From positions 1 through 64,000 of IMG/VR virus record IMGVR_UViG_3300032163_000004: DNA of 64,000 nt, one strand, 5' to 3'. The DNA is from a virus. Both the position numbers and the translations under genes were made by a program. Shown in pieces: positions 23,682 through 40,717 of the stretch; positions within the stretch are counted from its first letter, which is position 1; every line of letters starts with the position of its first letter. The notes below the pieces were generated by a model, which ran no database searches, had not been told where the DNA came from, and saw only the letters and a list, made by a program, of their open reading frames with translations.

Positions 23682-24104
23682 TTAAAGAGATTCTAAATAT
23701 TCAGCAAATACAAAATTAACTAATGCACCTGGTCTTTTCTCTCGAATCAATTTAACTGCATCTTTTCCTTTCATCCCTGACAAAATCAATATTATACCAT
23801 TCAGTAATCCACTTCTATTCATCCCTTGAGCACAGTGAACTAGTACTCTGAGTGGTTGTGGTTTTTTCTTCCAACAAGCTAGTCCATATGAAGCAACAGC
23901 TTTTAGTTCGTCTACATCTGGCAACTCAGGTTTATCTGAAATAGGCCAATATAAATATGAAGACAGTGGAGTAACAAAAGGATCAAAACTTCCCTCCAAA
24001 TCAATCACAACATCGATTTTAAGGTCTATAACTTTTTTAGGATCATCAAAAGATCCAGACTGAAATAGACCAGGTAATATTTCGTTGTAGTTGAATTCTT
24101 TCAT
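23682..24104 (-). CDS. Dual-specificity/PTP-family phosphatase
   Basis: VLVHCAQGMNRSG (HCx5R), WPISD. Confidence 0.88.
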   Translation of the reverse strand: MKEFNYNEILPGLFQSGSFDDPKKVIDLKIDVVIDLEGSFDPFVTPLSSYLYWPISDKPELPDVDELKAVASYGLACWKKKPQPLRVLVHCAQGMNRSGLLNGIILILSGMKGKDAVKLIREKRPGALVNFVFAEYLESL

Positions 24105-24190
24105 AATTACTCTCCTCACGAAAGATGTAAAAACAGACCAAAGGTTTACTTGTATTAACCACCGAATCCAAATTTTTATATCACTCATTA

Positions 24191-24865
24191 CTACCTCCTT
24201 TTCTTTCCAAACATTGGATTCTTTTCTCCTTTTACTCCTTCACTCTGTTTCTTTCTCCATTCTTTTGCTTTTTCTTCTCCAAATAATTCTTCATATGTTT
24301 TTCCCTTTCTTTTAGAAGATCTTCCTTCTAAAGATTCACTAATCTTCTTCTTATGTTCTTCAGATTGTGGACCTTTTCTTCTTCCTTTCATTGCTTTTCT
24401 TCTTTTCTCATTACTTTCTTCTGATATAATTCTTCCTTTAAGTTTCTTACTAAGTTTTTCTCTAACTTCTAACCTTTTAGATGGATTGTTTTCTCCTCTC
24501 ATCCATTCTGAATGACTTGGATTTTTCTTTCCTTTATGAGATATGCTTATCCTTTCTCTTTGATCCTGAGTAAGGAAATAACCATTAATTCCTTCTCCAC
24601 CATCTGTTAAGTTATACCCTCTTGGAACTTTACAGTTGTAAAATTTAATCCAATATTTTTCTTTTTCATTAAGTTCTTCTATAGACTTAGCATTATCTAT
24701 AACTAAAAACTCGAAATTTTGAATTCCATATTTCTTAAGAGCTTTTGAAAAAACAGGAGATCCTCCCATCCTAACATGGTCATAAATCCTAACTTTCAGT
24801 TCATTTCTGGTTTGACCAATATAAATCTTTTCATTGATCTTATTCTGAGCCCTATAAATTATCAT
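24191..24865 (-). CDS. GIY-YIG homing endonuclease with NUMOD3 repeats
   Basis: IIYRAQNKINEKIYIGQT, GYNLTDGG, SEEHKKKISES. Confidence 0.88.
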   Translation of the reverse strand: MIIYRAQNKINEKIYIGQTRNELKVRIYDHVRMGGSPVFSKALKKYGIQNFEFLVIDNAKSIEELNEKEKYWIKFYNCKVPRGYNLTDGGEGINGYFLTQDQRERISISHKGKKNPSHSEWMRGENNPSKRLEVREKLSKKLKGRIISEESNEKRRKAMKGRRKGPQSEEHKKKISESLEGRSSKRKGKTYEELFGEEKAKEWRKKQSEGVKGEKNPMFGKKRR

Positions 24866-26547: not shown

Positions 26548-27426
26548 TTATAGCTTTTGAATTTCTTCTTTTTCATAAAGTTCATCCCAGCTATCAAATG
26601 GAATATTATAATATAAACTTACGATGTTCATAGTTAATTTATCTGCTTTTTTATAATCTGGTTCTGGAGGAAGAGTGCTTCTAACATATGCTTCTTGGGC
26701 TAAAGAAAATAATTTTTCAGCTTCACTTTTTACTTTCTCTAGTTTCCATTCACCATTCTTTATTTCTATTAATTGAGGAGCATCTTCTCTTTCTACATGC
26801 AAAGTTCCTTCACTTAAAAACTCTATACCCATTCTCAATAGTCTAATTAAGTGAGCGGCATTCTTCGTATCATAACCAAACTTTTCAACAAGTTGTTTTC
26901 TCTTTTCTCCCATATAACCTTCGTAATTTGCATGCTCCATTTTATGTAATTGATCATAAGCATAACCTGTAAATGCATGGTAAACTTTTTTAGTTTTAAA
27001 AATATTTCTATATAAAACAAGAGCCCATCCAATTCTATTCACATAAATGTAGTGTCTTTCATCTAACCAAAGCATCATCAAAACATTAGGATTTCCTTGT
27101 AACAATAATTTAACAAACTTTATAACTTCATAATGAACTGCATCCCAATCTCTTATCTTTACTTCATACGCTCCTCTTGGATTGAGTTCATCTTTCTTAG
27201 AATAGTCATATTTACTAAGACCAATATAGGAGTTCAAAGGAGCTACATAGACTCCCAATACATCTTTATCATCAACCCCACAAGTTCTTGATGGGTCTAA
27301 ATACATACCATGAGCAATACTTCCTCTAAACCCTAAGAGAATAGTAGTAGAAGGAACTAGTGCTTTCTTCTCAACATAAGTCAAACCTTTAAGATTCATT
27401 TTATCATGAATATCTTTATTCTCCAT
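26548..27426 (-). CDS. YcgL/RlaP-like Pol-beta nucleotidyltransferase
   Basis: RGSIAHG...DDKDVLGV, GNPNVL, YDTKNAAHLIRLL. Confidence 0.85.
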   Translation of the reverse strand: MENKDIHDKMNLKGLTYVEKKALVPSTTILLGFRGSIAHGMYLDPSRTCGVDDKDVLGVYVAPLNSYIGLSKYDYSKKDELNPRGAYEVKIRDWDAVHYEVIKFVKLLLQGNPNVLMMLWLDERHYIYVNRIGWALVLYRNIFKTKKVYHAFTGYAYDQLHKMEHANYEGYMGEKRKQLVEKFGYDTKNAAHLIRLLRMGIEFLSEGTLHVEREDAPQLIEIKNGEWKLEKVKSEAEKLFSLAQEAYVRSTLPPEPDYKKADKLTMNIVSLYYNIPFDSWDELYEKEEIQKL

Positions 27427-32090: not shown

Positions 32091-32414
32091 CTATTCTGCT
32101 GTATAATATTCAATCTTCAAATTTTTTTCATCCATTTGTCTTTCAACTTCTTTATCTACTTCGTAAATAATTTGATATGCTCTCATTTTTAACCAACTTC
32201 GAAATTTATAATTCTCTACAAGTTTCCTAAATGCTTTTCTCTTATTTTGTCCTTGAGATCTCTCTTCTCTACATTCTGAAGATATTCCAGTTTCAATATG
32301 AGTTATTCTAACACCGCTATTTACTTTATTAACATTTTGTCCACCATGACCACCACATCTAAAAGTATCAACTCTAAAGTCTTTTTTAGTTAAAGAGAAT
32401 ATTCGATCTTTCAT
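32091..32414 (-). CDS. Short RF-1-domain peptidyl-tRNA hydrolase (ArfB/PrfH-like)
   Basis: [22 protein letters not shown]....REERSQ.QNK; lacks the codon-recognition domain. Confidence 0.88.
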
Positions 32415-32427
32415 TTTTCTCCTAATT

Positions 32428-32516
32428 TGGCGGCGGGTAAAGGATTTGAACCTTTGTGGCTTTTACACCGGCAGTTTAGCAAACTGCTGCAATAAGCCTG
32501 ACTCTGCCAACCCGCC
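32428..32516 (-). tRNA. tRNA-Ser(GCT)
   Basis: Cloverleaf GCAGT-TTGCTAA-ACTGC, long variable arm, encoded CCA. Confidence 0.92.
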
Positions 32517-32519
32517 TAA

Positions 32520-32593
32520 TGGTGAGTCGAGAAGGAATCGAACCTTCGTTTGCGAGTTAAAGGCCCGCTACTTTGCCACTAAGTTATCGACTC
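32520..32593 (-). tRNA. tRNA-Lys(TTT), atypical C33
   Basis: GCGGG-CCTTTAA-CTCGC, TTCGA T-loop, CCA. Confidence 0.85.
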
Positions 32594-32597
32594 TATA

Positions 32598-32674
32598 TGG
32601 TGGGCAGGACAGGAATTGAACCTGCGACCTTCTGGACTTCAGCCAGACGCTCTACCTTCTGAGCTACCTTGCCC
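32598..32674 (-). tRNA. tRNA-Phe(GAA)
   Basis: TCTGG-CTGAAGT-CCAGA, CCA; one bulged A in the acceptor stem. Confidence 0.88.
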
Positions 32675-32682
32675 TTATATTT

Positions 32683-32761
32683 TGGTGGAGGATAAGAGAA
32701 TCGAGCTCTTCTGAATTCCTCGGTGCAAGCGAGGTGACCACCCCAAGCAGTCCCATCCCCC
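32683..32761 (-). tRNA. tRNA-Ala(TGC)
   Basis: CCTCG-CTTGCAC-CGAGG, G3:U70, CCA; degenerate T-loop. Confidence 0.85.
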
Positions 32762-32771
32762 GAAATTATAT

Positions 32772-32845
32772 TGGTAGCCAGTAGAGGATTTGAACCTCTG
32801 TTAGACGATTATCATTCGCCTGTCCTGCCATTGGACGAACCGGCC
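32772..32845 (-). tRNA. tRNA-Ile(GAT)
   Basis: GGCGA-ATGATAA-TCGTC, CCA. Confidence 0.82.
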
Positions 32846-32855
32846 TTTTATTTAT

Positions 32856-32929
32856 TGGACACACCGGTGGGATTTAAACCCACGTAGCTGATTTTGCAGA
32901 CCAGTGCCTCGTCTCTCGGCCACGGTGTG
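32856..32929 (-). tRNA. tRNA-Cys(GCA)
   Basis: CTGGT-CTGCAAA-ATCAG, U73, CCA. Confidence 0.88.
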
Positions 32930-32931
32930 AT

Positions 32932-33007
32932 TGGCGGACTGGACGAGATTTGAACTCGTAATCTTTCAGATCGACAGTCTGATATTTTACCATTAAACTA
33001 CCAGTCC
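32932..33007 (-). tRNA. tRNA-Asp(GTC)
   Basis: TCAGA-CTGTCGA-TCTGA, G73, CCA. Confidence 0.9.
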
Positions 33008-33197
33008 ACACTCTCTAAGATAACTTGCGCTGCCACGCAATTACTACGTGAAAAAATTTGAATGACAAAACTATTTCTCCCTTCATACACGGTGATCCTG
33101 CCTTAATCCATCTCCACTTGGTAGATCCCTTAATAAGCATTACCCAGGCCAATACGGCATTACCTAAACTCATTTGCGATAACCATCCCAACATATT

Positions 33198-33287
33198 TGG
33201 AGGAAGGGGAGGGATTTGAACCCCCGAGGCTTTTACACCCAGTGGTTTTCAGGACCACCTCCATAAGCCAGACTCGGACACCCTTCC
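33198..33287 (-). tRNA. tRNA-Ser(TGA), atypical C33
   Basis: GTGGT-CCTGAAA-ACCAC; long variable arm GGTGTAAAAGCC shared with Ser(GCT); CCA. Confidence 0.88.
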
Positions 33288-35965: not shown

Positions 35966-36037
35966 CATAATCTCCTTTCTTTTATTGTTCAAAAACAGAA
36001 CGTTGTCTTCTGTATGTTCATTGTTATTTAGTATAGA

Positions 36038-36058
36038 CTATATATATTAATTATTGAA
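36038..36058 (+). promoter_or_regulatory. Island promoter motif driving the Ro60-like operon
   Basis: ctatatatattaattattga. Confidence 0.7.
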
Positions 36059-36154
36059 GAAAGGAAGGAAGTTTTATTTTTACTTGGCCTAGTCATCTTA
36101 AGAAGAATAAAACTTCCTTACCTAATTTTTTTATTCACGAAAGGAGGATTGATA

Positions 36155-37633
36155 ATGAAAGCTTCAGAACAAGTTCTAACTACTCAACAACTAATTGGGA
36201 ACTTGATCAAAGTCGTCCACAAATCTTTAGACTTATATGTAGATGACTCTCTAAAAGTAGTTAAGCAAAATCCAGATCTCTTCGCTCACCTCATAGCATG
36301 GAATCACATTAATGGAGAGATAAGGGATACTAAAATTGCATTCCCAGTACTATCTCTTCGAGGAAACGCAGGAGAAGAAAAGTCCTACTATGAAAATGCT
36401 GTTGCTCATCTATTATTGTTTGATCCACGAAATTTAGTAAAAGCAGTAACTTTTGATCGAGAACTCAATAGTAAAGGTGTTATTATTTCTGGAGGAGCTG
36501 GAACTCTTTTAAAGAAAGCAGTTCAAAATTATCTTAGAATAAGAGAAGAAAATCCACCATGGTGGAATAAAGCAGTTGTTCAACACAGAACATCAATGAA
36601 AACTCTCTATGCTATGTACCATGTTAAACCAAATGCAATGGCTGATAAAATTCTCTTTAAAGAACAATATCCAAAAAATTCAGTGTTTGAAGCCATAAGA
36701 CAATTAAAAAATATGGACCCAAAAGAAGCTGGCGCTGCAATACTAAATTATAAAATTCCATTTACAATCGCTGTTGGCGCAGTTGGGGGTATAGCTAAGA
36801 ATACTGATTTAGTTTTATCTCTCATTGAAAATATGTCTGGAAATGAACTTATAACTAATTCAAACATGCTTTCTAAATTAGGAGTTATGGATAATCCTGT
36901 TCTTAAATCTGCTTTTGAAAATGCAATTTCTAAAGCTAAAAAAGATAAAAGGACAAGCACTCTTAAAGCAGGAATAGCAGCTTCAGTTGTAAATGATGAA
37001 AAGATGAAAGTCAAATTAGAAAAACTGCAAGAACACAAAATCGACAATCTAAAAGGTCTAGAAGGAGATTGGTTAATCTTAGCTGACAAATCAGGTTCTA
37101 TGAAAGAATCTATTATTAAATCAAAAGAAGTAGCTGCATTTCTTGCTCGCACTACTAAAGGAAAAGTATACCTAGTCTTCTTTAATACCCTCCCAGTTAT
37201 GTATGATGTTTCCGAAAAATCTTTACAAGAGATCAAAACAATTACGTCTGGTATTATGGCTGGAGGAGGAACATCTATTGGTTGCGGTTTACAACTAATC
37301 TCCGATAAACAAATTATCGTAAATGGAATAGTAATCTGTTCAGATGGTGGAGAAAATACTCATCCTCACTTCTTTGAAGTTTATAAACAATATGAAAAGA
37401 AATATATGATTTCCCCAACAATTTATCTTATACATTTTCCTGGAGAACTTGACGTACTAACTATTCAAGCTTCTGGTTTTTCTTATGAGAAACTAGATGG
37501 AAAAGATCTTGATTATTATGGTCTACCTAATTTATCAAACATTCTAAGATCATCAAGATATACTTTTGTTGATGAAATAATGCAAGTTCCATTACTAACA
37601 ATAAACAGTGTCTTACAAAGAAAGGAGGCTTAA
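36155..37633 (+). CDS. Ro60/TROVE-like RNA-binding protein with C-terminal vWA (MIDAS) domain
   Basis: 492 aa; helical N-terminal region (NPDLFAHLIAW...EIRD); vWA motifs LILADKSGSM (DxSxS), GGTS, ICSDGGEN; Y-RNA-like array downstream. Confidence 0.78.
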   Translation: MKASEQVLTTQQLIGNLIKVVHKSLDLYVDDSLKVVKQNPDLFAHLIAWNHINGEIRDTKIAFPVLSLRGNAGEEKSYYENAVAHLLLFDPRNLVKAVTFDRELNSKGVIISGGAGTLLKKAVQNYLRIREENPPWWNKAVVQHRTSMKTLYAMYHVKPNAMADKILFKEQYPKNSVFEAIRQLKNMDPKEAGAAILNYKIPFTIAVGAVGGIAKNTDLVLSLIENMSGNELITNSNMLSKLGVMDNPVLKSAFENAISKAKKDKRTSTLKAGIAASVVNDEKMKVKLEKLQEHKIDNLKGLEGDWLILADKSGSMKESIIKSKEVAAFLARTTKGKVYLVFFNTLPVMYDVSEKSLQEIKTITSGIMAGGGTSIGCGLQLISDKQIIVNGIVICSDGGENTHPHFFEVYKQYEKKYMISPTIYLIHFPGELDVLTIQASGFSYEKLDGKDLDYYGLPNLSNILRSSRYTFVDEIMQVPLLTINSVLQRKEA

Positions 37634-37634
37634 G

Positions 37635-37931
37635 ATGCCAATCAGAATTTCTAATTTAGAGTCATTAGATTTAGATGAATTAATAGACCTTCGTGCACGA
37701 TTAAGAAGTATTGATCAAGGATATTCAGAAGAAAAAGCAGATACTCCTGAATATATAGTTGATGCCTTAGCTCAAACCAGTACTAGAATTACAAACCAAA
37801 CCAAAGCAGAGCTTCAAAGAAAACGAAAACTAGCAATAGCAAAAAGATCTTCTCTTGCTACTAGAGATGAAAGAAAAGCTCAACTTGATCAAGAAATCGC
37901 TGCTTACGACGAGAAACTTAAACCAGCTTAG
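37635..37931 (+). CDS. Small coiled-coil partner protein of the Ro60-like gene
   Basis: SD aaggagg; ATG 1 nt after the Ro stop; all-helical, basic C-terminal half. Confidence 0.7.
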   Translation: MPIRISNLESLDLDELIDLRARLRSIDQGYSEEKADTPEYIVDALAQTSTRITNQTKAELQRKRKLAIAKRSSLATRDERKAQLDQEIAAYDEKLKPA

Positions 37932-37932
37932 A

Positions 37933-37945
37933 GAACATATACCTA
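37933..37945 (+). promoter_or_regulatory. GAACA-type (putative late) promoter immediately 5' of the RNA array
   Basis: GAACATATACCTA = AACA-N6-TA; same motif as upstream of minus-strand units. Confidence 0.5.
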
Positions 37946-37950
37946 TAAAT

Positions 37951-38071
37951 TAGCCGATACTGAATAATCTTACATGCTTTAGCTCAATGGTAGAGCAAGA
38001 ATCTATCAAATTCTCGGTATGCGGTTCAACTCCGCAAAGCAACCAAACAAAGGTTATTCGACTTTCGGCTA
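37951..38071 (+). ncRNA. Y-RNA-like unit 1; cargo is a tRNA-like domain (5-bp acceptor stem, ATC anticodon, ACCA)
   Basis: TAGCCGA-TACT-GAATAATC...GGTTATTC-GACTT-TCGGCTA stem enclosing a D/anticodon/T cloverleaf at 37975-38045. Confidence 0.8.
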
Positions 38072-38088
38072 TTTAATTTATTAAATAT

Positions 38089-38234
38089 TGGTCGATACTG
38101 AACAATCATACATGCTTAAACATAGGTTCGAATCCTATAATTCGCTCCCTAAAAGCGAACTTAGCCAAGTGGATAAGGCAAGACTCTTGAAAAGTCTCAA
38201 TATGCAAACAAATTGGTTGTTCGACTTTCGACCA
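38089..38234 (+). ncRNA. Y-RNA-like unit 2; cargo is a circularly permuted tRNA-Ser(TGA)-like domain
   Basis: TGGTCGA-TACT-GAACAATC...GGTTGTTC-GACTT-TCGACCA; inner order is T-arm, closed acceptor, D-arm, anticodon arm. Confidence 0.82.
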
Positions 38235-38258
38235 TATTTATTAAAAATGGAGAAGGAA

Positions 38259-38423
38259 ATGAGAAACCCTAAAATAGGAGATCGTTTCTATTCTGAAGTA
38301 TATGATCTTAACGGAACTATTAAAGCAGTAAAAAATAGTTGGATTAGAATCCAATATGACGATTGGTCTCATGGTGATTTTTCTACTAACGAATTCTATA
38401 AACTTCATATATCACTTGATTAG
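38259..38423 (+). CDS. Small hypothetical protein (54 aa) inside the RNA array
   Basis: ggagaagg SD; MRNPKIGDRFYSEVYDLNGTIKAV...; SH3/KOW-like pattern. Confidence 0.45.
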   Translation: MRNPKIGDRFYSEVYDLNGTIKAVKNSWIRIQYDDWSHGDFSTNEFYKLHISLD

Positions 38424-38427
38424 ATAA

Positions 38428-38496
38428 GCCAGTCACTGAATAATCATACATGCTTCTATCCTAAAGGAAACAATAATGGTTATTCGACTTACTGGC
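38428..38496 (+). ncRNA. Y-RNA-like unit 3 (minimal cargo)
   Basis: GCCAGT-CACT-GAATAATC...GGTTATTC-GACTT-ACTGGC. Confidence 0.78.
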
Positions 38497-38505
38497 ATAA
38501 AATAA

Positions 38506-38580
38506 TAGTCAGTCACTGAGTAATCTTACATGCCTTTTAGGTAGGCTCCAAAACCGAAAGGTTACTCGACTTACTGACTA
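38506..38580 (+). ncRNA. Y-RNA-like unit 4; cargo is a CCA-ending microhelix
   Basis: TAGTCAGT-CACT-GAGTAATC...GGTTACTC-GACTT-ACTGACTA; insert GCCT-TTTAGGT-AGGC-T-CCA. Confidence 0.78.
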
Positions 38581-38587
38581 AAAAAAT

Positions 38588-38717
38588 TGGGTTAGTCACT
38601 GGATAATCATACATGCTTTTTAGCTCAATTGGTTGAGCGTTAGTACTTAGAACTAAGGGTTGATGGTTCAACTCCATCAAAAGCAGCCAAAAATTGGTTA
38701 TCCGACTTACTAACTCA
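38588..38717 (+). ncRNA. Y-RNA-like unit 5; cargo is a full-length tRNA-like domain (TTA at the anticodon position, GCCA)
   Basis: TGGGTTAGT-CACT-GGATAATC...GGTTATCC-GACTT-ACTAACTCA enclosing a 76-nt cloverleaf at 38614-38689. Confidence 0.82.
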
Positions 38718-38814
38718 TTTTTATTTTAGGATTCTGCATCCGTATAAACTCACGACTCCATTTGTGACCTTCTGCCTAATCAACGCTCAACGAGCATAAG
38801 CACCTCCATGAGCT

Positions 38815-38863
38815 AATAAAGGAACTAGATAACTCATAATTATTTAGTTCCTTTATTTTTTTG
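38815..38863 (+). terminator. Intrinsic terminator closing the Ro60/Y-RNA island
   Basis: aataaaggaactagataa/ttatttagttcctttatt stem followed by T-tract. Confidence 0.78.
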
Positions 38864-38878
38864 TTGAACTAGCCCTTA

Positions 38879-38899
38879 TTACATATATTAATTAATAGA
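38879..38899 (+). promoter_or_regulatory. Island promoter motif
   Basis: ttacatatattaattaataga. Confidence 0.65.
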
Positions 38900-40717
38900 A
38901 AGGAGATGAAACTTTGATAAACAGAAAACGAATTGATTTCTTCAAAAAGAATTGGAAATTAGGAATTCACCTTATCTTGTATACTAGGAGATTTGGAGTA
39001 AATAACGAATGGTGGAACTATTTTTCATCAACAGTTTGGGGAAATCCTATCCATAAAATCTTGTGGGACATTATACGTATTTATCCTTTAGTTCGCAATT
39101 ATAAAAGTATGAGATTTCGTGCAGGAGCCCTTCATTTCATGACAGATGAACAATATGAATTAGCATTTGGAAAGACTAAAGAATCAAGATTTAAACAGAG
39201 GAGGTTAATATGAACGAAGCCGATAAGATCAGAAAGAAATATGCTGAAGTCGGAAAACTTTGTAGCGAAGACTTAGATGGGGAACTGGCAGAACTAAGGA
39301 GTAGTTGTGGCCACAACGAATCAATAAGTTATAGAGAAGCCTCGAGATACTGGGGAGGAGAGTTATATTTTACAGAAGAAGAAGTTGCAAATATTATAGA
39401 ACCAAAAGATATACATACTGGAAAAAAGTATGAAGATTTACTACCAGTAAGAATATGTAAACGATGTGACAAGTTATTGTGGCCAAGTATGAACTAAGGA
39501 AGGAGAAGAAAATATGAAAACTGAAATGAGAAACAGATTAGCAGAAGTTCTTAAAGAACACAAAGAGATGGATGATTTTGCATCTAATCACTGGAGCAAG
39601 GTAGCCAATCTAGAAACAGAAAGACGACAGCTTTTATCACAGATAATAAAGGAAGAAAAGTTACTTAGTGAAGCTACCTTTTCTTTTAGAATAGATGTCT
39701 ACATACATAATAGAACTTGTGCCTTGGATGGACCAGTGTTGAGGGAAATGAAAGGATTGCAACAACTTTTAAAGGGTACACCTGAAGACAATAGTGATTA
39801 TCTTAGTCTTGATTTAGGCGAGGGGCATTTAAGTGTTAATGACGGAGAAGTTCATATTTCTATCAATAAGCTAGAGGATTCTCAAAAGATCATTGATGAT
39901 TGGGGCTTAAAGGTTGAATATAAAAACCTTGCGAAGCATAAAGAAAAGTTAGAAGAAGATTTAAAGGTAATAAACACTTTTATTAGAAAAATCACAAAGG
40001 AAGGAGGTTTTATAAAATGAAGTGTAATATTTGTGGTGAAGAAGCAGAAGACTATATTGACTCTAATGAATGTCTCCGTATAGATATTGGAGAGTTTGTT
40101 TGTAAAAAGTGTTGTGACGACTGTCCATTTGCTTACGGAATTTGTGACCACCACCTTCGTGTAATTAAAAAGAAATGGACTGGTCCTATGTCAAACTAAT
40201 CCTTGAAAGAAAGGAGGTTAAAAATGCAACAAGGTAAAGTTATTATGTCTCTTAAAGAAGCTAACAAAATAGTATCTGAAGAATATCGGATTGGCAAGAG
40301 AAATGAGAATGATCTTTACCCAGTATATAAAAGAGATACTTCTTCTCATATGATTGCTCTTATTAGGGGGGCTCATTGTGAAGAACGAATTGCATTTGCC
40401 AAAACATTAGAACAAGCTGTAGATATTACTAAAGGGATTGTAGAACAAGATCCATCTCAAAGAAAGGAGGTATGACAAAAGTGAAGCCAAAAATAAACAG
40501 ATTAGAAAATGATTTTGGAGGAGGATATTCTATTGATTCTATCACAATTGGAAAGAAAACATTTGAAATTTGGGAGTCAGTAGTTGGATGGGAGAATAGT
40601 ATGAAAAATATAGAGAGAGCGATAACAAAAGCCTATAACGAAGGATTCAAAGATGGTCAAAAACCTGAAAGAGAAAAGCGATAAATAAAACGCCATTTGC
40701 ATTTGATGGATAATATT

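What the first reader, a model, noticed from the sequence alone, without database searches (positions are those of the whole stretch)
36038..38863. Phage Ro60-like protein plus a tandem array of five modular Y-RNA-like RNAs with interchangeable cargo
Seen: a self-contained island of promoter, 492-aa helical+vWA gene, 98-aa partner, five RNA units and terminator. Every unit has the same frame: outer stem, invariant internal loop (5'-YACT / GACTT-3'), 8-bp inner stem, WTACATGC, variable cargo and an A-rich linker. The stems covary: inner GAATAATC/GGTTATTC, GAACAATC/GGTTGTTC, GAGTAATC/GGTTACTC, GGATAATC/GGTTATCC; outer TAGCCGA/TCGGCTA, TGGTCGA/TCGACCA, GCCAGT/ACTGGC, TAGTCAGT/ACTGACTA, TGGGTTAGT/ACTAACTCA. 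Selection therefore appears to act on RNA structure. Established: Ro60 (TROVE+vWA) binds a bulged helix formed by Y RNA ends; bacterial YrlA RNAs carry a tRNA-like effector domain and lie next to the Ro gene, typically in one or two copies. Inference: one protein-binding handle has been duplicated and loaded with four or five different tRNA-derived modules. This gives a programmable RNP set that could bait host tRNA nucleases or tether different RNA-processing or translation factors. I do not know a description of such a mixed-cargo array.
Basis: partly seen in the sequence, partly recalled or inferred. Interest (0 to 1): 0.95.

Follow-up and report, generated by a model that had tools for sequence, protein, structure and literature searches.

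The report
Phage Ro60-like protein, handle-RNA array
An uncultured large phage encodes a strongly diverged relative of the RNA-binding ring protein Ro60, a small helical partner protein and five small RNAs that share one conserved two-helix "handle" but carry different tRNA look-alikes; this extends the known Ro60/Y-RNA particle in a way I could not find published.

Summary
Window 36155-37633 encodes a 492-aa protein. Its predicted structure matches Ro60 over its whole length (Z 21, 438 residues), although no Pfam TROVE signal is detectable. A 98-aa three-helix partner follows it and is conserved in 76 of 79 loci.

Five RNA units then lie between 37951 and 38717. Each has an outer stem, an internal loop (YAC / ACUU) closed by a U-G pair, an 8-9 bp inner stem, NUACAUG, a variable cargo and an A-rich linker. 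The whole lies between a promoter-like site and a terminator.

The handle is not a local curiosity. A covariance model finds 137 distinct units, all on the gene's strand, in 52 of 67 sources and up to six per locus, with strong covariation. An RNA-only pattern scanned across all IMG/VR hit nine contigs, and eight of them carry the gene.

Cargos are tRNA mimics: whole, circularly permuted (YrlA-like core) or mini-hairpins, with aberrant anticodons. Rfam's YrlA and Y_RNA models do not cover the units.

My best reading is a Ro60/Y-RNA-type particle with modular tRNA-mimic RNAs, a new variant of a known kind. Binding and function are inferred, not shown. The bait idea is untested.

This scan has already noted the same kind of system on other phage DNA many times.

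The parts
36021..36048 (+). promoter-like site (TTGTTA, 16 nt, TATATT) in the divergent intergenic region before the operon
   Evidence: Consensus scan. It is a consensus match only; promoter-like sites are not enriched over shuffles in this AT-rich region.
36062..36123 (+). long hairpin in the 5' untranslated region of the Ro60-like gene, role unknown
   Evidence: Fold, (z -2.9); sequence.
36155..37633 (+). 492-aa diverged Ro60-like protein: helical TROVE-type ring (about residues 1-300) plus a vWA domain with a MIDAS motif (about 303-470)
   Evidence: AlphaFold model, pLDDT 85.6. Foldseek's top 12 hits are all Ro60/TROVE. VIA-align gives Z 21.2, 438 residues aligned, rmsd 4.1, against vWA-only chains at Z 15 or less. 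D311, S313, S315, T373 and D397 are invariant in 41 homologues. ESM Atlas neighbours are TROVE clusters. There is no Pfam TROVE hit.
37635..37931 (+). 98-aa partner protein with three helices and a basic C-terminal half, probably translationally coupled
   Evidence: Homologues lie directly downstream of, or overlap, the Ro60-like gene in 76 of 79 loci. Model pLDDT 86. No significant fold or family match.
37951..38071 (+). RNA unit 1: handle plus a tRNA-like cargo in normal topology (5-bp acceptor stem, anticodon AUC, ACCA encoded)
   Evidence: Rfam tRNA 48.3 bits; z -5.4; R2 39.4 bits.
38089..38234 (+). RNA unit 2: handle plus a circularly permuted tRNA-like cargo (T arm, closed acceptor hairpin, D arm, anticodon arm); the handle leaves from the variable-loop position
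   Evidence: partial tRNA hit, 26.3 bits; z -4.0; aligns with the recurrent ~94-nt cargo class; R2 30.8 bits.
38259..38423 (+). 54-aa ORF with a ribosome-binding site between units 2 and 3; coding status uncertain
   Evidence: No family hit. No relative in 78 loci.
38428..38496 (+). RNA unit 3: handle with a 25-nt hairpin cargo (minimal unit)
   Evidence: R1 55 bits; z -5.1; R2 31.1 bits.
38506..38580 (+). RNA unit 4: handle with a 27-nt cargo (4-bp hairpin followed by UCCA)
   Evidence: R1 48.1 bits; z -4.1; R2 32.6 bits.
38588..38717 (+). RNA unit 5: handle plus a complete tRNA-like cargo (7-bp acceptor stem, GCCA encoded, anticodon UUA with C33)
   Evidence: Rfam tRNA 57.8 bits; R1 32.4 bits; z -4.5.
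38815..38864 (+). intrinsic terminator-like hairpin (18 bp) with a T-run, the probable end of the operon
   Evidence: fold.

Best explanation
The island is an operon for a phage version of the Ro60/Y-RNA ribonucleoprotein.

The 492-aa protein is a strongly diverged Ro60: a helical ring plus a vWA/MIDAS domain. The five RNAs are Y-RNA-like. Their paired 5' and 3' ends form a conserved handle, which I infer to be the docking site for the ring protein, possibly together with the conserved 98-aa helical partner. The handle consists of an outer helix, a 3-by-4-nt internal loop (5'-YAC / ACUU-3') closed by a conserved U-G and G-C pair, an inner helix of 8-9 bp, and then NUACAUG.

The variable interior displays a tRNA-shaped body, a piece of one, or only a short hairpin (unit 3). 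By analogy with Yrn1/YrlA and phiLo Yrl RNAs, I expect the tRNA-like bodies to recruit or occupy proteins that recognise the tRNA elbow or acceptor end (RNases, RNase P, CCA-adding, modification or repair enzymes). This would steer the ring's activity on structured RNAs during infection, most probably within phage tRNA maintenance or RNA-damage conflicts.

Shown here: the fold, the RNA family, covariation, and genomic coupling of the protein, the partner and the RNAs.

Inferred: binding, processing into separate RNAs, and every step of function.
For: Protein:
- It matches Ro60 over its whole length: Foldseek's top 12 hits are all Ro60/TROVE, and VIA-align gives Z 21 over 438 residues, clearly above vWA-only chains.
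- The MIDAS residues are invariant.
- TROVE clusters are the nearest named neighbours in the ESM Atlas.

RNA:
- All five units fold into the handle.
- On 13 homogeneous units, 94.9% of cells pair, 13 of 15 pairs show changes on both sides, and the covariation score is 0.915 against 0.227 in shuffles and at most 0.19 in the slid controls.
- On 137 model hits, 93.9% of cells pair and the covariation score is 0.89 against 0.19.
- The U-G pair is present in 117 of 137 units.

Coupling:
- All 137 hits are on the gene's strand, in 52 of 67 sources, next to the gene.
- A scan of 2.9 million viral contigs with an RNA-only pattern gave 9 contigs, and 8 of them are among the 78 that carry the gene.
- Adjacency survives a change of order: the RNAs lie upstream of the gene in relatives and downstream here.
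- The partner is present in 76 of 79 loci.

Cargo as mimic rather than decoding tRNA:
- Among in-handle tRNA-like cargos, 5 of 21 have a non-ACG A34 and 3 of 21 have stop anticodons, against 5 of 285 for each among free tRNAs in the same loci.
- A recurrent ~94-nt cargo class is a permuted tRNA. It scores 27.9 bits on the tRNA-like core of Rfam YrlA.

Precedent:
- Ro60 proteins bind Y RNAs encoded next to the gene in bacteria and phages (PMC4201824, PMC12135203).

Context:
- The window holds an RlaP RNA-repair nucleotidyltransferase, a GGQ mini release-factor protein and a tRNA cluster.
- Relatives sit inside tRNA islands.
Against: - No experiment or transcript data were available. Binding of the handle by the protein is inferred from co-location only.
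- The handle lacks the published Ro-binding signature (GNCGAAN0-1G / CGAA on the 5' strand) as a conserved feature. The protein has no detectable sequence similarity to TROVE. The analogy therefore rests on fold and architecture.
- The two-helix handle with an internal loop would also suit an RNase III-type processing site.
- Protein and RNAs could be co-inherited within one phage lineage without touching each other.
- No RtcB or RNA ligase was found in the 102-kb fragment, which is only about 40% of the genome.
Confidence: 0.78

Rival explanations
1. The handle is an RNA-processing cassette, for example a site for host RNase III or another double-strand nuclease, that excises tRNA-like RNAs from a polycistronic transcript. 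The Ro60-like protein lies nearby only because both belong to the same conserved tRNA island.
For: The units are packed 8-17 nt apart between one promoter-like site and one terminator, so they need processing. Two helices separated by an internal loop is the classic shape of phage RNase III sites (general knowledge). Relatives sit inside tRNA operons.
Against: Free tRNAs in the same operons (285 of them) have no handle, so tRNA release does not need it. Units with hardly any cargo keep the full handle (units 3 and 4; 37 units of 50-80 nt). The sequence-specific loop, the U-G pair and UACAUG are conserved across proteins only 27-50% identical. The RNA-only search recovers almost only contigs that carry the gene.
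Confidence: 0.1
2. The tRNA-sized cargos are working tRNAs, including an ochre suppressor, kept caged by leader-trailer pairing. The Ro60-like protein controls their release or quality.
For: Units 1 and 5 pass Rfam's tRNA threshold and encode NCCA. Some relatives score as high as real tRNAs, for example 67 bits in L060. M. smegmatis YrlA is cut by RNase P and receives CCA (PMC4201824).
Against: Anticodons are aberrant far more often than in free tRNAs. Unit 5 has C33 and unit 1 has a 5-bp acceptor stem. Permuted and hairpin cargos cannot decode. Encoded CCA is not a family-wide feature (20 of 122 units against 17 expected). The window's ORFs are open under the standard code.
Confidence: 0.07
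3. The repeats act at the DNA level, for example as recombination or homing sites or miniature mobile elements, rather than as RNAs.
For: HNH (33 related loci) and GIY-YIG homing-type nucleases occur nearby.
Against: G-U pairs fit only the gene's strand: the conserved U-G pair is present in 117 of 137 units. Stems covary while their sequence is free. All units are on one strand. There are no target-site duplications or terminal repeats.
Confidence: 0.02

Closest known systems
Bacterial and phage Rsr (Ro60) with YrlA/YrlB Y RNAs (Chen et al. 2014, PMC4201824; Rfam RF02553)
   Same: A ring protein with a vWA domain has small RNAs encoded next to its gene. The RNA ends pair into a stem. The interior mimics tRNA, with a T arm, a closed acceptor-like hairpin and a D arm in permuted order, as in unit 2 and the ~94-nt cargo class. 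More than one Y RNA per locus is known.
   Different: - The protein is not recognised by Pfam TROVE.
- The handle has its own conserved loop (YAC/ACUU, U-G) and UACAUG instead of a conserved GNCGAAN0-1G.
- RF02553 gives no hit in the window at E up to 10, and 27.9 bits against a cut-off of 69 in a relative.
- There are up to six units per locus.
- Cargos also include unpermuted whole tRNA shapes and bare hairpins, and the handle can leave from the acceptor end or the variable-loop position.
- A conserved 98-aa partner gene is present.
Thermus phage phiLo Ro60 with Yrl1 and Yrl2 (PMC12135203; PDB 9KOP, 9L5Y)
   Same: This is a phage-encoded Ro60 of similar size with Y-like RNAs next to the gene. 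It is among the best structural matches (Foldseek rank 1; Z 19).
   Different: Sequence identity is 16-17%. The phiLo RNAs were defined by a CGAA motif in a stem-bulge and are two simple hairpin RNAs without tRNA-like cargo. No partner protein was described. phiLo is a cultured Thermus phage, whereas this family is known only from uncultured phage contigs.
Deinococcus radiodurans Rsr-Yrn1-PNPase (RYPER) and metazoan Ro60-Y RNA particles
   Same: The working model is the same: the stem docks on the ring and the loop module tethers another protein. The fold matches 2NVO and 1YVP.
   Different: There is no evidence here for PNPase or any other effector. No Y_RNA (RF00019) signal was found.

Membership tests
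Ro60 / TROVE proteins | Helical-repeat ring followed by a C-terminal vWA domain, matching solved Ro60 structures over the full length | tested here: met
   Predicted model only. Foldseek's top 12 hits are all Ro60 (TM 0.52-0.68, probability 1.0). VIA-align gives Z 21.2, 438 of 492 residues aligned, rmsd 4.1.
Ro60 / TROVE proteins | MIDAS motif (DxSxS ... T ... D) in the vWA domain | tested here: met
   D311, S313, S315, T373 and D397 are invariant in 41 homologues.
Ro60 / TROVE proteins | Sequence match to Pfam TROVE (PF05731) or to solved Ro60 sequences | tested here: not met
   None of 41 members matches at E up to 1. A family profile against PDB sequences finds no Ro60. PF05731 finds nothing in the record although the control genomes respond. 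The relationship is therefore visible by fold and language-model features only.
Ro60 / TROVE proteins | Binds Y RNA stems on the outer face of the ring and RNA ends in the central hole | not testable with these tools
   This needs gel-shift assays, pull-downs or a structure of the complex.
YrlA-type Y RNA (Rfam RF02553) | Score at or above the family's gathering threshold (69 bits) | tested here: not met
   No RF02553 match in 37900-38900 at E up to 10. The own-record search gives only sub-threshold hits at tandem tRNAs elsewhere. The best hit in a relative is 27.9 bits, covering the tRNA-like core only.
YrlA-type Y RNA (Rfam RF02553) | Conserved GNCGAAN0-1G / CGAA motif on the 5' strand of the terminal stem | tested here: not met
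   Units 1 and 2 read GCCGAU and GUCGAU there. Units 3-5 and most of the 137 related units do not. The conserved elements are YAC, a U-G pair, UACAUG and CGACUU on the 3' strand.
YrlA-type Y RNA (Rfam RF02553) | tRNA-like domain in the order T arm, acceptor-like hairpin, D arm | tested here: met
   Met for unit 2 and the recurrent ~94-nt cargo class. Not met for units 1 and 5 (normal tRNA order) or units 3 and 4 (hairpins).
YrlA-type Y RNA (Rfam RF02553) | Encoded within a few kb of the Ro60 gene on the same strand | tested here: met
tRNA (Rfam RF00005), for the cargos of units 1 and 5 | Cloverleaf above the gathering score with a canonical 7-nt anticodon loop (U33) and a usable anticodon | tested here: inconclusive
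   The scores pass the threshold (48.3 and 57.8 bits against 29). However, unit 5 has C33 and a UUA anticodon, and unit 1 has a 5-bp acceptor stem and an AUC anticodon. Family-wide the anticodons are aberrant.

The most novel reading that the evidence does not exclude
One Ro60-like ring, with its small helical partner, uses a common handle to load a changeable set of tRNA-shaped RNAs. In this way the phage tethers, titrates or redirects several different host or phage tRNA-recognising enzymes at once, for example as a counter-measure to host nucleases that attack tRNAs, or as a platform for tRNA repair. This would be a modular RNA-guided adaptor system, not merely another Y RNA.
Probability: 0.2. 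Interest if true: 0.85.

Novelty: new variant of a known kind. Interest (0 to 1): 0.62.

Why it matters
Ro60 and Y RNAs are conserved from bacteria to humans, yet their functions are known for only a few cases.

This family offers a natural series of RNAs with one docking module and many bodies. At least 793 proteins matched in the capped protein search, and at least 137 RNAs were found in the viral contigs fetched. The minimal units of about 70 nt would define the docking element. The series would make it directly testable what the variable part of a Y RNA recruits.

It also shows that sequence-based surveys (Pfam TROVE, Rfam YrlA) miss a large phage branch of the system. That branch is tied to phage tRNA islands and RNA-repair genes.

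Tried and rejected
None of the 80 fetched loci had the gene, and the 'units' lay in coding sequence. I replaced it with a stricter pattern.
- The first covariance model, R1, was built on a MAFFT alignment that mixed 8-bp and 9-bp inner stems and was out of register (56-67% of cells paired). I rebuilt it as R2 from a homogeneous set.
- The idea that small cargos are acceptor microhelices ending in NCCA is not supported family-wide: CCA lies before the 3' arm in 20 of 122 units against 17 expected.
- The partner protein has no significant family or fold match; only generic coiled-coil resemblances appear.
- A nucleotide search of the island against 50,697 phage records found nothing. A protein search found two distant uncultured hits only.
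- The Listeria phage CKA15 Rsr-like gene (PMC12282133) is not a detectable relative of this protein, because no Listeria phage record appeared.
- I searched the record for RtcB and RNA ligase and found none.
- The stretch 38718-38814 before the terminator shows no convincing structure of its own.
Full report
**What is there.**
- The window comes from a 102,210-nt IMG/VR virus record that CheckV rates as about 40% complete. It is AT-rich and carries phage-type genes.
- Between a promoter-like site (36021-36048) and an 18-bp terminator hairpin with a T-run (38815-38857) lie, all on the plus strand:
  - a 492-aa ORF (36155-37633);
  - a 98-aa ORF whose ATG follows the first stop by one base (37635-37931);
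  - two RNA units;
  - a 54-aa ORF of doubtful status (38259-38423);
  - three more RNA units.
- The five units are 37951-38071, 38089-38234, 38428-38496, 38506-38580 and 38588-38717. The direct-repeat search recovers the 5' and 3' halves of the handle five times each.
- Each unit folds on its own into the same frame, with z-scores of -4.0 to -5.4 against shuffles. The frame is:
  - an outer helix of 6-9 bp;
  - an internal loop, 5'-YAC / ACUU-3';
  - an inner helix of 9 bp that begins with a U-G pair;
  - one free base, then UACAUG;
  - the cargo;
  - an A-rich linker.

**The protein.**
- Pfam sees only a weak vWA signal. PHROGs gives phrog_850, 'RNA-binding protein', over the vWA part.
- More than 793 homologues of about 490 aa exist in metagenomes, and almost all are unannotated.
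- An AlphaFold model built on 41 homologues is confident (pLDDT 85.6, pTM 0.77).
- Foldseek's twelve best PDB hits are all Ro60/TROVE: Xenopus and human Ro60, Deinococcus Rsr and Thermus phage phiLo Ro60. They align over about 500 columns.
- VIA-align gives Z 21.2 with 438 residues aligned at 4.1 A. This stands well above the vWA-only chains, which score Z 15 or less.
- The MIDAS residues D311, S313, S315, T373 and D397 are invariant in the family.
- The ESM Atlas independently places TROVE clusters among the nearest named neighbours by features (0.94-0.95) and by structure (TM 0.64-0.76).
- At sequence level the relationship is invisible. None of 41 members matches Pfam TROVE at E up to 1. 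A family profile finds no Ro60 among PDB sequences. PF05731 finds nothing in the record.
- I therefore file the protein as Ro60-like by architecture, and as a branch that standard annotation misses.

**The RNA family.**
- I fetched 78 viral contigs that encode a homologue.
- A script anchored only on TACATG and on pairing found 117 distinct strict units on the gene's strand and 1 on the other strand. 115 of the 117 were upstream of the gene. The loop motifs YAC and ACUU, which the script did not require, dominated.
- A clean alignment of 13 units of one length class gave:
  - 94.9% of cells paired;
  - changes on both sides at 13 of 15 pairs;
  - a covariation score of 0.915, against 0.227 in shuffles and at most 0.19 in slid controls.
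- A covariance model built from that alignment (R2) found 137 distinct units at E up to 0.01. All were on the gene's strand. They lay in 52 of 67 sources, with up to six per locus.
- On that alignment 93.9% of cells pair and the covariation score is 0.89 against 0.19. The U-G pair is present in 117 of 137 units and the adjacent G-C pair in 116.
- That alignment is fitted to the model's structure and so leans towards it. The strand asymmetry and the raw sequences do not depend on the fit.
- From the RNA side, I scanned all 2.9 million IMG/VR contigs with the pattern ACTGNNNNGCTTACATGN{70,100}CGACTT. It hit nine contigs, and eight of them are among the 78 that carry the gene. The ninth is a 6.7-kb fragment.
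- In every relative with a model hit the units lie upstream of the gene; here they lie downstream. Adjacency has therefore survived a rearrangement.

**The cargo.**
- Unit lengths fall mainly into two groups: 50-80 nt (37 units) and 110-140 nt (70 units).
- Units 1 and 5 carry tRNA cloverleaves in normal order that pass Rfam's tRNA threshold (48.3 and 57.8 bits). The defects are clear, though. Unit 1 has a 5-bp acceptor stem and an AUC anticodon. Unit 5 has C33 and a UUA anticodon.
- Family-wide, in-handle tRNA-like cargos have non-ACG A34 in 5 of 21 cases, stop anticodons in 3 of 21 and malformed loops in 2. Among 285 free tRNAs of the same loci the figures are 5 for non-ACG A34 and 5 for stop anticodons.
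- Unit 2 belongs to a recurrent class with a cargo of about 94 nt. This is a circularly permuted tRNA: T arm, acceptor hairpin (often closed over an ACCA), D arm, and with or without an anticodon arm.
- One such unit in L029 scores 27.9 bits on positions 22-89 of Rfam YrlA. That region is the tRNA-like core and excludes the stem.
- Units 3 and 4 are near-empty handles.
- Encoded CCA before the 3' arm is not enriched overall (20 of 122 units against 17 expected). The linker is 48% A.
- The cargos therefore look like tRNA mimics under selection for shape, not for decoding.

**The partner and the neighbourhood.**
- A homologue of the 98-aa protein lies directly after the Ro60-like gene, or overlaps its end, in 76 of 79 loci.
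- Its model is a confident three-helix protein with no significant fold or family match. To my knowledge it is not part of described Ro60 systems.
- Relatives sit inside large phage tRNA operons: 114 tRNA hits in 15 loci, all on the gene's strand. An HNH nuclease gene occurs in 33 loci and a GGQ/RF-1 mini-protein in 10.
- The window holds:
  - the same mini-protein (32091-32411, minus strand) beside an eight-tRNA cluster;
  - an RlaP RNA-repair nucleotidyltransferase (26548-27423, minus strand);
  - a dual-specificity phosphatase-like gene and a GIY-YIG nuclease gene.
- No RtcB or RNA ligase was found in the fragment.

**Comparison with what is known.**
- Chen et al. 2014 (PMC4201824) described YrlA RNAs next to Ro60 in 254 bacteria and 22 phages. 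These have a GNCGAAN0-1G motif in the stem and a permuted tRNA-like domain. Some loci have several RNAs.
- The phiLo study (PMC12135203) showed a phage Ro60 binding two upstream Y-like RNAs through a CGAA motif and engaging host PNPase.
- The present system has the same logic but differs in several ways:
  - the protein branch is hidden from Pfam TROVE;
  - the handle signature is different;
  - Rfam's YrlA and Y_RNA models fail on the units;
  - there are up to six RNAs per locus;
  - the cargo is attached in different topologies, including whole tRNA shapes;
  - there is a conserved partner gene.
- The family is absent from 50,697 deposited phage genomes apart from two distant uncultured records. 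It is nearly absent from 185,579 species genomes: three short contigs in metagenome-assembled genomes.
- Four literature searches found no description of it.
- Earlier notes of this same scan report the same kind of Ro60-like gene with handle-RNA arrays in many other phage genomes. Two of those loci have proteins that share short words with this one. I treated these notes as leads only. The pointer to RF02553 was tested here.

**Verdict.**
- It is a new variant of a known kind.
- Binding, processing and the biological role remain inferred.
- The 'programmable bait' idea is possible but untested. Drifting anticodon loops argue against simple anticodon-nuclease decoys.

Noticed in passing
window 26548-27423 (-): A 291-aa protein matches Pfam RlaP, the RNA-ligase-associated Pol-beta nucleotidyltransferase of RNA repair systems (57 bits, cut-off 23). 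No RNA ligase or RtcB was found in the 102-kb record.
   Followed up: partly
window 32091-32411 (-): A 106-aa protein consists of little more than the GGQ (RF-1) peptidyl-tRNA hydrolase domain and lies directly beside the eight-tRNA cluster at 32428-33287. Homologues lie near the Ro60-like gene in about 10 related phage loci.
   Followed up: partly
window 36062-36123 (+): A long hairpin (about 20 bp) lies in the 5' untranslated region of the Ro60-like gene and is followed by a T-rich stretch. It could be a regulatory or attenuator element. It shows no resemblance to the handle.
   Followed up: partly
window 38259-38423 (+): A 54-aa ORF with a strong ribosome-binding site is inserted between RNA units 2 and 3. 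It has no family match and no relative in 78 related loci.
   Followed up: partly
L001-L078, upstream of the Ro60-like gene (for example L039:3391-3957): An HNH endonuclease gene of about 188 aa sits between the RNA units and the Ro60-like gene in 33 related loci, on the same strand. It may be a homing element or a functional partner.
   Followed up: partly
window 23682-24865 (-): A dual-specificity phosphatase-like gene (DSPc) lies next to a GIY-YIG/NUMOD3 homing-type nuclease gene.
   Followed up: no
G000:C1:66449-68103 (beyond the window): Sub-threshold YrlA-model hits here look like tandem tRNA genes, so the record has a second tRNA cluster outside the window.
   Followed up: no
L029:7514-8656 (-): An IS605 OrfB/TnpB-type (Cas12f-like) gene lies about 2 kb downstream of the Ro60-like operon in several related loci.
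   Followed up: no
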